Source: an uncultured Gammaproteobacteria bacterium
GTDB lineage: Bacteria > Patescibacteriota > Microgenomatia > Daviesbacterales > UBA10151
Length of the DNA stretch: 52,879 bases
Assembly: GCA_964405655.1 (NCBI GenBank)
Contig: CAYOOO010000008.1
Span: 1-52,879 of the forward strand
Reading direction: 5' to 3'
Below, in pieces: positions 16,794 through 21,501 of this stretch. Position 1 is the stretch's first letter. The number at the start of each line of letters is the position of its first letter. A program made the position numbers and the translations under genes. The notes below the pieces were generated by a model. The model was not told the DNA's origin. It did not search any database and saw nothing but the letters and a program-made list of their open reading frames with translations.

Positions 16794-17570
16794 TCATACT
16801 TTTCTCCAATCAGTTATAACCTCAGCTTTATCTTTTCCTACTATCACACTCATCTCAAATAATCCTCCTAAACTACCATCTTTGGTAGTATATGTCCAAC
16901 CATCATCAGATAAGTACACATCAGCATTTTTAGCTGCATAAATTACCTCAATTGCCAAAGTCATTCCCTCCTCGAGTATTAGTCCAACTCCTCTTTGCCC
17001 ATAGCCTGGGATATCCGGTTTCTCATGGAGTGCTTTACCTACTCCATGGCCAATCAGAGTTTTTGAGATGCTATAACCTGCTTTCTCGACTACTGTCTGG
17101 ATAGCATTTGAGATATCCCCAACCGTATTACCCGCAACAGCCTGATTAATTCCAGTCCATAGTGCCTTCTCCCCAACCTTTAAAAATCTAGTTTTCTCCT
17201 TTAGTTGCTCTTTGTCTTTTTCCTGTCCAACTATAATACTCCAGGCTGTATCTGTATGCCAACCCTCAAACAGAGCTCCGACATCTATACTCAAAAGATC
17301 CCCATCCTTAAGCTTGATATCCCTGGGTATTCCATGAACCAGTTCATCGTTAACTGTCAAACAAGTTGCCCATTTGTAGCCTGGTGCACTCAAGAATGAT
17401 AGCTTGGCTCCATTTTTTTTAATCTCAGAGGCTGCAACATCTTCAATCTCAAGCAAACTAACACCCGATTTTGCAGACTTTAGAGCTTTTTTGAGGGCTT
17501 TAGCGCTTATTTGGCCGCTTAGTCTCATCAGTTTAAGCTCTTTTTGACTGCGAGGTTTGACTAAGCTCAT
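16794..17570 (-). CDS. map: Methionine aminopeptidase type I
   Basis: VHGIP, SIDVG, HTDTA, GHGVG and LAIE metal-binding motifs. Confidence 0.96.
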   Translation of the reverse strand: MSLVKPRSQKELKLMRLSGQISAKALKKALKSAKSGVSLLEIEDVAASEIKKNGAKLSFLSAPGYKWATCLTVNDELVHGIPRDIKLKDGDLLSIDVGALFEGWHTDTAWSIIVGQEKDKEQLKEKTRFLKVGEKALWTGINQAVAGNTVGDISNAIQTVVEKAGYSISKTLIGHGVGKALHEKPDIPGYGQRGVGLILEEGMTLAIEVIYAAKNADVYLSDDGWTYTTKDGSLGGLFEMSVIVGKDKAEVITDWRKV

Positions 17571-18091
17571 AGACTCTTTTTTATTTGACGATGAACCTCC
17601 TCAATGCTTTGCTCACCATCTATCTCGATTAATTTATTAATTGAGATATAGTAATTTAAAAGCATAACAATTCTTCTTTTTTGGGCTTTAAATCTAGTTG
17701 CAATAATCCTATCCTTATCATCTAATCTGCCTCGGGAAAGCATCCTTTTAGTTGCCTTCTCTTCTGAAACATTTAAATGAATAACATAGTCAAACTTTGG
17801 ATCAAATAAATGAATTTGAGCCAGAGATCTGGGATATCCATCAATCACAAAACCATACTGACAATCTGGTTGCTTCAGTCTGTCTTTAATAATTTGAGCT
17901 ACTAGCTCATCCTCGACTAAAAAACCTTTTTCAACCTTTTCCTTTATTTTTTTTCCTAAAGGACCATCAGCTGCGATCATCTCTCTTAATATTTGACCAA
18001 AGTTTATAAAACAAATTTTTAAATCTTCGGCTATTTTTTTTGCTTGTGTGGTTTTTCCGCTTCCTGGTAACCCCAAAATAAGGATCTTCAT
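17567..18091 (-). CDS. adk: Adenylate kinase, short-LID type
   Basis: GLPGSGKTTQA, DGYPRS and RGRLDD; located between secY and map. Confidence 0.93.
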   Translation of the reverse strand: MKILILGLPGSGKTTQAKKIAEDLKICFINFGQILREMIAADGPLGKKIKEKVEKGFLVEDELVAQIIKDRLKQPDCQYGFVIDGYPRSLAQIHLFDPKFDYVIHLNVSEEKATKRMLSRGRLDDKDRIIATRFKAQKRRIVMLLNYYISINKLIEIDGEQSIEEVHRQIKKSL

Positions 18092-18168
18092 TGGAAATTT
18101 TCCTTATCTTTTTTAAAATTTCCTCCGAAGAACCTCGTCTTCGCCTTCGGCGAACGTAAAATCTTCAC
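18088..18168 (-). other. 26-aa mini-ORF bridging secY and adk, repeating the adk start (MKIL)
   Basis: GTG overlaps the secY TGA (GTGA) and its TGA overlaps the adk ATG (ATGA). Peptide [26 protein letters not shown]; contains TTCGCC-GAA-GGCGAA. Confidence 0.55.
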
Positions 18169-19460
18169 CGTCTTAGAAATCCTTCGTAATTTCTCTCTAT
18201 TAACTTACTTTCAAACTGTTTGGCAGTATCTAAGACAACAGACACAACAATTAAGATTGATGTTCCACCAATTACCAAGGTTGTAATGTTAGTAAACTGA
18301 GAAATTATTGAAGGTAAAATTGCTATTAATCCTAAAAAGATTGCTCCTGCTAGAGTAATTCTTAAAAGAATATAGTTTAAGTAACTGGCTGTAGCGCTAC
18401 CAGGTCTAATCCCCGGGATAAAACCTCCGTATTTTTTTATCTCATCAGCGATCTTAGTTGGATTAAAAATAACAGCAGTATAAAAATAAGTAAAACCAAT
18501 TACTAGTAAAAAGTAGCTTAGGTTATAAATTATAGAGTTGGGATTAAAATTAGTTGCTAACCAGTAGCCGATATTTCTTAGAGGAACAGAACTCATCTGA
18601 GATAAAAACTGGCCTGCAAACGAAGGCAGTAGCACCAACGAGACAGCAAAAATTATTGGAATTACTCCTGCTTGGTTAACTCTTAAGGGAAGATAGGTAT
18701 GGTTGCCTCCTCCAACTGCTTGTCTGTTGCCAATAAACCTTCGGGCATATTGAACCAGAATCTGTCTCCTTCCTTCATTGACAAAAACAATTCCAGCTGT
18801 CACCATTATCCCAACAGCGATAAAGATTAGTAAATTAATTAGCTGCTGCTGATCAACGATTGAGGCAGTTTGGAAAAGAACAACTGGCGCTCTGGCAACA
18901 ATTCCAACAAAGATCAAAACCGAAATCCCGTTACCGATTCCGTACTCACTCATCAGTTCCCCTAACCACATGATAAAGACTGTTCCAGCAGTCATTCCGA
19001 CTATAATTGCCAGAATCTCAAGCGGTGTGCCTGCCTCTATTAATCCCTGTCTTTTCAAAAGGGTGAACATCCCAATTCCCTGTAAGACAGCCAGCGGGAC
19101 AGTTAAGTATCTAGTATATTGATTAATCTTCATTCTACCTTGTTCCCCCTCTTTTGAAAGTTCCTCAAGTTTAGGGAAAACCATGGTTAAAAGCTGGATA
19201 ATAATCGAGGCGTTAATATAAGGATTTAAACCTAAAGCAATGACTGAAAAATTAGCTAAAGTTCCTCCAGAAAATATATCCAAAAGCCCAAGCAGTTGAT
19301 TACTTTGGAATAAGTTTCTTAAGCCTTCTAAATCCACACCGCCTATTGGTATATGAGCAGCTATTCTGAAAATTATCAGTATTAGGATAGTAATAAGTAT
19401 CTTTCTTCTAAGCTCAGGGATACTAAAGGCATCAATGAAGGGTTTGATTATGCTATACAA
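18165..19460 (-). CDS. secY: Preprotein translocase SecY
   Basis: [31 protein letters not shown] and GGTSILIVV. Confidence 0.98.
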
Positions 19461-19902
19461 CTACTTTACCTCCTGCTTTCTCTATCTCATCTTTGACCTT
19501 TTTGGAAACAGGCAGATGGACATTCAAAGAAACCTTAAGATCTTCATCAAACAATACTTTAACTCCCTTCACCTTGACAGCTGAGGGTTTGACTAAATTT
19601 AGCTTGACTAACATCTCTAAATCAACTTCACTTTTGGCTTTTAGCTTATTTAATTGTGAGGTTTTGATGATGACTGATTTGGCAGACCTGACTGAATTGC
19701 CTCCTCTTCTACTCCATCCTCTTCGATAAGGAAGTTTCCTGTAAAGAGGTAGTGACCCACCAATAAACCCTGCTGGAATTTTACCTCTGGCTTTTTGACC
19801 TTTGGTACCTCTTGAGCTAGTTTTTCCTTTTCCAGAACCAATTCCCCGACCAACCCTTTTCTTTTCCTTAAGTTTTAATCTAGGTAAGTTACTTAGTTTC
19901 AT
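19453..19902 (-). CDS. rplO: 50S ribosomal protein L15
   Basis: [24 protein letters not shown] and IEKAGG. Confidence 0.97.
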
Positions 19903-20886: not shown

Positions 20887-21444
20887 TTACTTGGCTCCTC
20901 CAACTACTGCTTTGCCAGCTTTACCAGCTTTTCTTCTAACGTATTCTCCTTCATAACGGATGCCTTTACCTTTATAAACCTCTGGTGGTTTGACAGCTCT
21001 AATATTAGCAGCAACTTGTCCAACTAGATGTTTATCAATTCCACTGACAGTAATTTTAGTGTTATCACTAACTGTAAAGTTAATTCCCTCGGGAGCCTTA
21101 AAATTAACTGGGTGTGAATAACCAACGTTTAGAGTTAGACTGTCTCCCCCGCCTGAAGCTCTATAACCAACTCCAACCATTTCTAATTTTTTATCCCAGC
21201 CACTGCTTACTCCTAAAACCATATTGTTTAAAAGTGCTCGGGTTAAACCGTGAACCGACCTGCTTAACCGATCTTCTTTCTTTCGAGAAACAACCAGCTG
21301 GTTGTCTTTAACTTCGGCGCGAACGAGAGGGTTTAAATTAAGTTCCAAACTACCCTTTGGACCTTTAGCTAAAACCTTACTCCCTTCTATCAGGACCTCA
21401 ACGCTACTTGGTATATTAATAGGGTTATTACCAACTCTACTCAT
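20887..21444 (-). CDS. rplF: 50S ribosomal protein L6
   Basis: MSRVG..PI, GVGYRA and PPEVYKGKGIRY. Confidence 0.98.
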   Translation of the reverse strand: MSRVGNNPINIPSSVEVLIEGSKVLAKGPKGSLELNLNPLVRAEVKDNQLVVSRKKEDRLSRSVHGLTRALLNNMVLGVSSGWDKKLEMVGVGYRASGGGDSLTLNVGYSHPVNFKAPEGINFTVSDNTKITVSGIDKHLVGQVAANIRAVKPPEVYKGKGIRYEGEYVRRKAGKAGKAVVGGAK

Positions 21445-21447
21445 TTT

Positions 21448-21501
21448 TTACCAAATGTAAGCGAAGCTTGCCTTTGGTGACTCGAGTCACCAAACGTAGG
21501 C
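21448..21501 (-). repeat. Imperfect direct repeat of the rpsH 3' end around a 22-bp perfect palindrome
   Basis: GCCTACGTTTGGTGA and GCTTACATTTGGTAA, 39 nt apart (12/15 identical). Palindrome TTTGGTGACTC|GAGTCACCAAA at 21473-21494. Confidence 0.75.

What the first reader, a model, noticed from the sequence alone, without database searches (positions are those of the whole stretch)
18088..18168. Mini-ORF that exactly bridges secY to adk and repeats the adk start
Its GTG overlaps the secY stop and its TGA overlaps the adk ATG, so translation can be handed on at both ends. It begins GTG AAG ATT TTA (MKIL), against adk ATG AAG ATC CTT (MKIL). The interior holds a TTCGCC-GAA-GGCGAA hairpin. This looks like an insertion just after the old adk start that left a duplicated start and kept coupling intact.
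Basis: partly seen in the sequence, partly recalled or inferred. Interest (0 to 1): 0.65.

Follow-up and report, generated by a model that had tools for sequence, protein, structure and literature searches.

The report
Insertion-made relay mini-ORF between secY and adk
In an uncultured groundwater bacterium, about 70 bases were inserted where the secY and adk genes used to overlap, leaving the old adk start as a 26-codon reading frame that probably passes ribosomes on to the new adk start; it is a tidy evolutionary footprint, not a new kind of system.

Summary
The mini-ORF runs 18168 to 18088. Its GTG overlaps the secY TGA, and its TGA overlaps the adk ATG. It starts GTG AAG ATT TTA, against ATG AAG ATC CTT for adk.

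Relatives support the insertion reading. In Candidatus Daviesbacteria genomes with 77-81% SecY identity, secY and adk mostly overlap or abut. One, also assembled from the window's own sample, reads aaGTGAAAATTTTA. That is a literal GTGA empty site, 11 of 12 bases identical to the mini-ORF start.

The window therefore carries a lineage-specific 77-nt step: a 70-nt insert plus a 7-nt direct repeat, TGAAGAT. The insert matches nothing else. It is single-copy in the window and in the metagenome contigs.

It buries the new adk AUG.

Best reading: the orphaned old adk start site drives a relay ORF. Ribosomes on it open the hairpin and reinitiate at adk. This works like mycobacterial MIRUs.

Translation and coupling are untested. 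An open, in-frame bridge would arise by chance in about 4-10% of such insertions. Interest is moderate to low.

The parts
18165..19460 (-). secY, ending ...YEGFLRR-TGA. The stop TGA is at 18165-18167.
   Evidence: Pfam SecY E 2e-105. The C-terminus aligns with relatives that end at the same residue with TAA, TAG or TGA.
18180..18185 (-). GAAGGA inside the conserved secY codons E-G (YEGFL), 11 nt before the GTG. It is the likely Shine-Dalgarno of the ancestral adk start and now serves the mini-ORF.
   Evidence: The same GAAGGN lies 11 nt before the adk start codon in the -4 overlap relatives shown (L007, L009, L090, L094). Its function as an SD is inferred.
18088..18168 (-). 26-codon bridging mini-ORF (GTG...TGA): the relic of the ancestral adk start (first 12 nt) followed by insert sequence.
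   Evidence: The first 12 nt are 11/12 identical to the adk start of L094. No Pfam match. The peptide is not in the protein collection.
18161..18167 (-). Upstream copy of the 7-nt direct repeat TGAAGAT (secY stop plus the old adk codons 2-3).
   Evidence: the repeat finder D3, spacing 77; base rate.
18091..18160 (-). The 70-nt insert proper, lying between the two repeat copies. The boundary can slide within the repeat. Origin unknown.
   Evidence: No similarity to the adk 5' or secY 3' regions of the window or of 7 relatives. No other copy in the window. Read depth over the insert equals single-genome depth in the metagenome contigs. Only runs of one study hold it.
18140..18154 (-).
   Evidence: Present in the centroid fold, but competes with a CGGUGAA/UUCGCCG pairing; z -1.5.
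18080..18136 (-). Main hairpin. The insert arm GAGG-U-UCUUCG-GA-GGAAAUUUU pairs with AAAAUUUCC-AA-UGAAGA-U-CCUU, which holds the adk AUG and codons 2-4. The loop is 13 nt.
   Evidence: -18.9 kcal/mol, 63% of the ensemble, z -3.08, 0 of 200 shuffles. Inverted repeat of 21 nt, 81% complementary.
18101..18105 (-). AAGGA, the new Shine-Dalgarno-like motif for adk, 9 nt before the ATG. It lies mostly in the hairpin loop.
   Evidence: Read directly from the sequence. A 9-nt spacing is the modal SD spacing in this window.
18084..18090 (-). Downstream copy of TGAAGAT (bases 2-3 of the adk ATG plus codons 2-3). Its TGA is the mini-ORF stop.
17567..18091 (-). adk (174 aa). The true start is the ATG at 18091, since MKILILGLPGSGKT aligns residue for residue with relatives. 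Its stop overlaps the map start (ATGA).
   Evidence: Pfam ADK E 1e-35; N-terminal alignment with relatives.

Best explanation
The ancestor of this Candidatus Daviesbacteria lineage had secY and adk fused in the common -4 arrangement. The secY TGA was overlapped by the adk start, (G/A)TG AAR ATT TTA, and the Shine-Dalgarno sat in the secY codons for YEGFL.

About 70 nt of unrelated sequence was then inserted at the adk start. A 7-nt direct repeat, TGAAGAT, was created, and adk moved 77 nt downstream.

The old initiation site was left behind intact: the SD-like GAAGGA, the GTG overlapping the secY stop, and codons MKIL. It now opens a 26-codon frame. Because 77 is 2 mod 3 and no stop intervenes, that frame ends at the TGA inherited in the downstream repeat copy, overlapping the new adk ATG.

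The 3' half of the insert pairs with the adk AUG and its first codons in a -18.9 kcal/mol hairpin.

Proposed mechanism:
1. Ribosomes finishing secY, or loading at the old SD, translate the mini-ORF.
2. They melt the hairpin.
3. They terminate on AUGA and reinitiate adk, helped by the new AAGGA 9 nt upstream.

The peptide itself is a by-product.

Shown: the anatomy, the empty sites in relatives, the single-copy status and the predicted structure. Inferred: translation of the mini-ORF, dependence of adk on it, and how the insertion happened.
For: - Anatomy.
- Empty sites in relatives. GTGA: L094, L095. ATGA: L007, L008, L009, L090 and the X3 contig. TAATG or 1-4 nt gaps: L006, L091, L092, L096.
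- Wider survey of 90 loci held (80 of them from the metagenome scan). -4 overlap in 20 loci, -1 in 1, and 1-30 nt gaps in 35. The tight junction is therefore the likely ancestral state.
- The repeat at the two functional positions is not chance (about 2e-4 per position).
- The old SD-like GAAGGN is kept at the same 11-nt distance as in the overlap relatives.
- The hairpin over the adk AUG is significant.
- There is no promoter-like or terminator-like site on the coding strand in the spacer.
- The neighbouring junctions of secY and adk are tightly coupled: rpsE/rplO overlap by 4 nt, rplO/secY by 8 nt and adk/map by 4 nt.
- Both RNA-unfolding and reinitiation coupling are established mechanisms. 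Coupling efficiency falls quickly with stop-start distance, so a bridging ORF would restore what the 73-nt gap costs (review PMC12548453).
Against: - There is no expression evidence. No RNA runs hold the region.
- No diverged homologue of the insert exists, so neither frame conservation nor hairpin covariation can be tested.
- An open in-frame bridge is expected by chance in about 4-10% of such insertions. The secY frame is also open through the spacer.
- adk has its own SD-like motif at the modal spacing, with its core in the hairpin loop. Independent initiation is therefore possible.
- 14 related loci have 54-153-nt secY-adk spacers with no full bridging ORF. adk in this group does not generally need a relay.
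- SD-like motifs precede only 15 of 58 genes here.
Confidence: 0.55

Rival explanations
1. The insertion is real but the bridge is incidental. The mini-ORF is open and in frame by luck, is translated weakly or not at all, and adk initiates on its own from the AAGGA motif. The spacer is simply one more hairpin-bearing intergenic spacer.
For: - The chance of an open, in-frame bridge is 0.04-0.10.
- The NTGA geometry at both ends is inherited automatically once an NTGA junction is duplicated.
- adk has an SD-like motif at the modal spacing, lying in the hairpin loop.
- 14 related spacers of 54-153 nt, several with long inverted repeats, have no full bridge.
Against: - The old initiation site (SD-like motif, spacing, start codon, first four codons) is retained almost unchanged, while the rest of the insert is unrecognisable.
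- Ribosomes ending secY arrive exactly at a start codon, so some translation of the mini-ORF is hard to avoid.
- A significant hairpin covers the adk AUG.
Confidence: 0.3
2. The insert is a copy of a small mobile, MIRU-like or MITE-like element. Such an element targets start codons or NTGA junctions, makes a target-site duplication and carries a bridging ORF so that it is tolerated inside operons.
For: - The insert is flanked by a 7-nt direct repeat.
- The 77-nt period has the same arithmetic (2 mod 3) as the 77- and 53-bp MIRUs.
- MIRUs are described as inserting at start codons with a -4 coupled ORF.
- In relatives this junction repeatedly holds palindromic inserts. One example is L049, where a palindromic insert of about 140 nt sits between two TATG copies, the downstream one being the adk start.
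- A second near-bridging ORF with a perfect 16-nt palindrome lies at the rpsH/rplF junction.
Against: - There is no second copy in the 52.9-kb window.
- Depth over the insert equals single-genome depth in four metagenome runs at 80% or higher likeness.
- The word index finds the insert only in the same study.
- The insert ends carry no terminal inverted repeats.
- The spacers of relatives are unrelated in sequence.
Confidence: 0.1
3. The origin was a tandem duplication of the first 77 nt of adk. The upstream copy then decayed, except for the start region.
For: - The direct repeat includes the start, and the four differing positions in the first 12 nt are all synonymous.
- A relative (L059) appears to carry an extra adk-like ORF between secY and adk (not verified).
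Against: Beyond the first 12 nt there is no similarity between the insert and the adk 5' region of the window or of 7 relatives (z 0.1 to 1.4; p 0.10 or higher). Decay that complete should also have erased the first 12 nt, unless they are under selection.
Confidence: 0.12
4. The 26-residue basic peptide is itself a functional micro-protein.
For: It is an intact ORF with a plausible initiation site.
Against: - It has no homologue, no domain and no hydrophobic segment.
- It arose by frame-shifted read-through of inserted sequence.
- It is confined to one species-level lineage.
Confidence: 0.03

Closest known systems
Mycobacterial interspersed repetitive units (MIRUs), e.g. the 77-bp and 53-bp units between senX3 and regX3
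   Same: - A short insert sits between two genes of an operon.
- It carries an ORF coupled at -4 to the gene at whose start it sits (review PMC12548453). The matching overlap with the upstream stop is from my own knowledge of Supply et al. 1997, which was not read here.
- The unit length is 77 bp, which is 2 mod 3 (PMC4716278).
- The presumed effect is insertion with minimal damage to downstream expression.
   Different: - MIRUs are multi-copy, often tandem (VNTR), GC-rich and mycobacterial.
- This insert is single-copy as far as could be tested, AT-rich and in a Patescibacteria (CPR) genome.
- Sequence relatedness was not tested and is not expected.
Translational coupling by RNA unfolding and termination-reinitiation (NTGA junctions; rpmI-rplT; MS2 coat-lysis)
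   Same: There are NTGA overlaps at both ends of the mini-ORF. The downstream start is buried in a hairpin that an upstream ribosome must melt (review).
   Different: Here the 'upstream gene' of the second junction is a 26-codon ORF with no likely function of its own, created by an insertion. Nothing has been measured.
Leader-peptide relays of plasmid replication genes (tap-repA of R1; repY-repZ of ColIb-P9). From my own knowledge; no paper was read here.
   Same: A short ORF has translation and termination next to the start of the main gene, and this is needed to open the structure over the main gene's initiation site.
   Different: Those systems are regulatory and controlled by antisense RNA. 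No antisense element or regulator is evident here.
MITE- or IS-type insertions with target-site duplication
   Same: A short direct repeat flanks foreign sequence. Palindromic inserts sit at the same junction in relatives.
   Different: There are no terminal inverted repeats at the insert ends and no other copies.
Translational bypassing elements (T4 gene 60; mitochondrial byps). From my own knowledge.
   Same: Matched codons sit at both ends of a non-coding gap (AAG and AUU/AUC). A hairpin can form at the upstream site.
   Different: No stop follows the take-off codon. A 2-4 residue nascent chain cannot provide the peptide signal. adk has its own ATG and SD, so bypassing is unnecessary.

Membership tests
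MIRU (mycobacterial interspersed repetitive unit) | Lies between two co-oriented genes of one operon | tested here: met
   It lies between secY and adk within the rplO-secY-adk-map-infA string.
MIRU (mycobacterial interspersed repetitive unit) | Carries an ORF whose start overlaps the upstream stop and whose stop overlaps the downstream start (-4 / -4) | tested here: met
   GTGA at 18165-18168 and ATGA at 18088-18091.
MIRU (mycobacterial interspersed repetitive unit) | Repeated: dispersed copies in the genome and/or tandem copies at a locus | tested here: not met
   There is one copy at the locus. No other copy was found in the window or in the metagenome contigs at 80% or higher likeness. The whole genome of the organism was not available as such.
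MIRU (mycobacterial interspersed repetitive unit) | Sequence related to the MIRU consensus; mycobacterial host | not tested
   No MIRU sequence was compared. The host is Cand. Daviesbacteria by SecY and adk relatives.
MITE / transposon footprint | Target-site duplication | tested here: met
   Exact 7-nt repeat TGAAGAT, spacing 77.
MITE / transposon footprint | Terminal inverted repeats at the ends of the inserted segment | tested here: not met
   The only long inverted repeat (18081-18101 with 18115-18135) pairs interior insert sequence with the adk start, not the two insert ends.
MITE / transposon footprint | Multiple copies | tested here: not met
Translationally coupled gene pair (RNA-unfolding / reinitiation) | Stop and start overlap or lie within a few nt (NTGA) | tested here: met
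   True at both ends of the mini-ORF.
Translationally coupled gene pair (RNA-unfolding / reinitiation) | Downstream initiation region sequestered in secondary structure | tested here: met
   Prediction only: -18.9 kcal/mol, z -3.08.
Translationally coupled gene pair (RNA-unfolding / reinitiation) | Downstream translation depends on upstream translation | not testable with these tools
   Needs reporter or ribosome-profiling data. No RNA runs hold the region.
Described RNA families (Rfam 15) | Match at or near a family's gathering score | tested here: not met
   No match in the window at gathering thresholds. Only chance-level hits (E above 2) appear in 17900-18400.
Translational bypass element (gene 60 type) | Stop codon directly after the take-off codon, plus a nascent-peptide signal | tested here: not met
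   The frame stays open after MKIL, and only 2-4 residues precede the putative take-off site.

The most novel reading that the evidence does not exclude
Patescibacteria (CPR) harbour a counterpart of mycobacterial MIRUs. These would be small inserts that land on NTGA gene junctions or start codons in essential operons. They would persist because they duplicate the start context and carry a frame that relays ribosomes across the insert. The secY-adk insert, and perhaps the palindrome-bearing rpsH-rplF spacer, would be members. The many unrelated hairpin spacers at this junction in relatives would be the unsuccessful or decayed versions.
Probability: 0.1. Interest if true: 0.6.

Novelty: new variant of a known kind. 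Interest (0 to 1): 0.35.

Why it matters
If the relay works, this is a natural, datable example of how an essential, tightly coupled ribosomal-protein operon tolerates an insertion. The orphaned start site is reused to carry ribosomes across the new spacer. That is the same logic as mycobacterial MIRUs and as synthetic 'bicistronic design' cassettes, but in a distant, uncultured phylum.

It is also a practical annotation point. Gene callers skip this 26-codon ORF; it is not called on L003-L005.

The finding does not open a new field. It is one locus in one species-level lineage, without expression data.

Tried and rejected
- **Tandem duplication of adk 5' or secY 3'.** Global and local alignments with shuffles show nothing beyond the first 8-12 nt.
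- **Other copies of the insert.** blastn-short against the window finds only A-rich matches of 16 nt or less. Depth over the insert in the metagenome contigs equals single-genome depth. The word index finds the insert only in the same study.
- **Empty-site allele within the population.** Contigs of seven runs show no joint that removes the insert and no variant inside it. Contigs drop rare variants, so absence is not proven.
- **Known RNA family.** None found.
- **Promoter or terminator in the spacer.** None on the coding strand.
- **Peptide search.** The homology tool refuses queries under 40 aa. The exact peptide is not in the collection, as expected because gene callers did not call it. There is no Pfam hit.
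- **RNA evidence.** No run available.
- **14-nt similarity** between CGGTGAAGATTTTA and CGGAGGAAATTTTA inside the insert (D1). By my estimate about one such match is expected by chance in a region this size, so I did not use it.
- **TGA recoding.** Rejected because relatives end secY at the same residue with TAA or TAG.
- **Translational bypass.** Rejected; see the membership test.
- **Contigs of P0104 and P0108.** Their SecY is 79-80% identical to the window's (P0108 is 90% identical to P0104) and they have 68- and 182-nt spacers. These could be the most informative relatives, but no DNA was served.

Full report
**What is there**

The locus is on the minus strand, inside a ribosomal-protein (spc/alpha-type) gene string. 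The order is rplO (19453-19902), secY (18165-19460), mini-ORF (18088-18168), adk (17567-18091), map (16794-17570), infA, rpmJ, rpsM.

The minus strand reads ...GAA GGA TTT CTA AGA CGG TGA for the end of secY. The GTG that shares two bases with that TGA opens GTG AAG ATT TTA CGT ... TTC CAA TGA. That final TGA shares two bases with the adk ATG.

The repeat finder independently reports the exact 7-nt direct repeat TGAAGAT at 18161-18167 and 18084-18090, spaced 77 nt.

**Is it real and more than chance?**

- Three contigs assembled independently from three runs are identical across the junction, and a further run of the same study also holds the insert.
- A contig from a different groundwater study covers 18129-18282 at about 97% identity, so the upstream part of the insert is present there too.
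- TGAAGAT occurs 24 times on both strands of the window, about 2e-4 per position. Its recurrence exactly at the secY stop and at the adk start is therefore not chance.
- The open bridging frame is much less remarkable. Once an NTGA junction is duplicated, both overlaps are inherited automatically.
- What remains is the frame condition (1/3) and the absence of stops (0.13 by shuffling, 0.29 for random window 69-mers). Together these give 0.04-0.10.
- The secY reading frame is also stop-free through the spacer.
- Among 20 same-strand spacers of 21-250 nt in the window, only this one is fully bridged. There is one near case at rpsH/rplF.

**Relatives**

The organism is a Candidatus Daviesbacteria (Patescibacteria/CPR). 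Its nearest SecY relatives are 77-81% identical and its nearest adk relatives about 53%. No closer genome other than the same species was found.

Junctions in the nearest relatives:

| Locus | Junction |
|---|---|
| L090 | aaggtATGAggatactt (-4) |
| L007, L008, L009 | agaagATGAagatatta (-4) |
| L094, L095 | aaaaaGTGAaaattttaatc (-4) |
| L006, L091 | TAATG (-1) |
| L092 | 1-nt gap |
| L096 | 4-nt gap |
| L093 | 35-nt gap |

L094 is an NCBI Daviesbacteria genome. L095 is the same junction assembled from the very sample that yielded the window's organism. Their adk starts GTG AAA ATT TTA on top of the secY TGA.

A low-depth contig in run X3 shares 32 of 33 bases of the secY tail with the window. 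It continues ...AAAGGAAATGAAGATCTTAATT, which is again a direct ATGA overlap.

Across the 90 loci held at that point (80 of them from the metagenome scan), the junction classes are:
- -4 overlap: 20 loci
- -1 overlap: 1 locus
- 1-30 nt gap: 35 loci
- 54-153 nt spacer: 14 loci
- more than 250 nt, with extra genes: 8 loci

A tight junction is thus the likely ancestral state, and the window's 73-nt spacer is derived.

**What the insert is**

After the first 12 nt, the 65 remaining bases resemble neither the adk 5' region nor the secY 3' region, in the window or in seven relatives. A decayed tandem duplication therefore cannot be shown.

The insert has no terminal inverted repeats and no other copy in the window. 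Read depth over it in four metagenome runs equals the single-genome depth, while the flanking secY bins rise ten- to a hundred-fold from other CPR genomes. It matches no Rfam family, and no promoter- or terminator-like site lies on the coding strand.

Its origin stays open. It could be a footprint of a transposition-type event with a 7-8-nt target duplication, an illegitimate recombination at microhomology, or an old duplication.

This junction is variable in the wider group. Several of the 54-153-nt spacers of relatives carry long inverted repeats and are unrelated to each other. In L049, a palindromic insert of about 140 nt sits between two TATG copies, the second being the adk start. That is an independent case of a start codon duplicated by an insertion, there without a bridge.

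**How it most likely works**

The old adk initiation region is retained upstream:
- The SD-like GAAGGA lies inside the conserved YEGFL codons of secY.
- It sits 11 nt before the start, as in the -4 overlap relatives shown (L007, L009, L090, L094).
- The GTG overlaps the stop, and codons MKIL follow.

Ribosomes ending secY therefore stand on a start codon, and some translation of the mini-ORF is hard to avoid.

The 3' half of the insert pairs with the new adk start. GAGG-U-UCUUCG-GA-GGAAAUUUU pairs with AAAAUUUCC-AA-UGAAGA-U-CCUU across a 13-nt loop, spanning 18080-18136. The hairpin has -18.9 kcal/mol, takes 63% of the ensemble, and scores z -3.08 with 0 of 200 shuffles as stable. The new SD-like AAGGA (18101-18105, 9 nt before the ATG) is mostly in the loop. 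The AUG and the next codons are in the stem.

The best-supported reading is a relay. The mini-ORF carries ribosomes through the hairpin, they stop on AUGA, and adk is initiated by reinitiation and/or on the unfolded site. Both mechanisms, and the steep loss of coupling with distance, are established (review PMC12548453).

This is inference. No RNA or ribosome data exist, and no diverged copy allows a covariation or frame-conservation test. Relatives with long unbridged spacers show that adk can do without a relay.

I put the insertion-plus-relic part at about 0.9 and the functional relay at about 0.55.

**Comparison with the known**

The closest described thing is the mycobacterial MIRU. [quoted passage not shown] The senX3-regX3 units are 77 and 53 bp, both 2 mod 3, like the 77-nt step here.

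This locus works like a MIRU but fails the defining feature of being repeated, and it is in an unrelated phylum. I do not file it as a member.

It also resembles leader-peptide relays such as tap-repA (from my own knowledge), but shows no sign of a regulator. Translational bypassing was considered because of the matched codons at both ends. I rejected it because there is no stop after the take-off codon, no room for a nascent-peptide signal, and no need for it.

**Verdict**

The feature is a lineage-specific insertion that created a bridging mini-ORF, most likely acting as a ribosome relay. It is a new variant of a known kind and of moderate-to-low interest (0.35).

Noticed in passing
window 21444-21490 (minus strand), rpsH/rplF junction: A second near-bridging mini-ORF lies in the same operon. 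Its GTG overlaps the rpsH TGA (tGGTGA). It runs 17 codons and ends at a TAG 5 nt inside rplF (ATGAGTAG, a -8 overlap). The 42-nt spacer begins with a perfect 16-nt palindrome, GGTGACTCGAGTCACC.
   Followed up: partly
L087:2745-3025: In one relative, a 57-aa cysteine-rich, very basic ORF (MAKKGSRILIGLICEVCKSLNYVVEKNK...) sits between secY and adk. It looks like ribosomal protein L33, but no family search was run.
   Followed up: no
L014, L028, L039, L059, L063, L065, L078 (between secY and adk): Whole genes are inserted at this junction in relatives. By eye they look like a purD-like ligase (L028), a GIY-YIG-type nuclease plus a small protein (L039), a NUDIX-like protein (L063, L065), a formyltransferase-like protein (L078) and a second adk-like ORF (L059). 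None was checked against a family library. The junction appears to be an insertion hot spot.
   Followed up: no
L049:2788-2937: A palindromic insert of about 140 nt (23-nt arms, 87% complementary) lies between two copies of TATG. The downstream copy is the adk start. This is an independent case of a start codon duplicated by an insertion, here with a 16-codon orphan ORF that does not reach adk.
   Followed up: partly
window 18034 (A8/T8 run, adk codons 17-20): The contig of run X4 lacks one base of the 8-base homopolymer inside adk, which would shift the adk frame. This is probably an assembly or sequencing error, or a minor variant.
   Followed up: no
window-wide: SD-like motifs lie 3-13 nt upstream of only 15 of 58 long ORFs, against a 10% background. 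Starts were taken as the first start codon of each ORF, so this is a lower bound. Twelve of 51 same-strand neighbouring ORF pairs overlap.
   Followed up: partly
window 18114-18127 and 18157-18170: The insert holds CGGAGGAAATTTTA, which matches the junction CGGTGAAGATTTTA at 11 of 14 positions. By my estimate this is at chance level for a region this size, but it would fit a two-step (43 + 34 nt) origin.
   Followed up: partly
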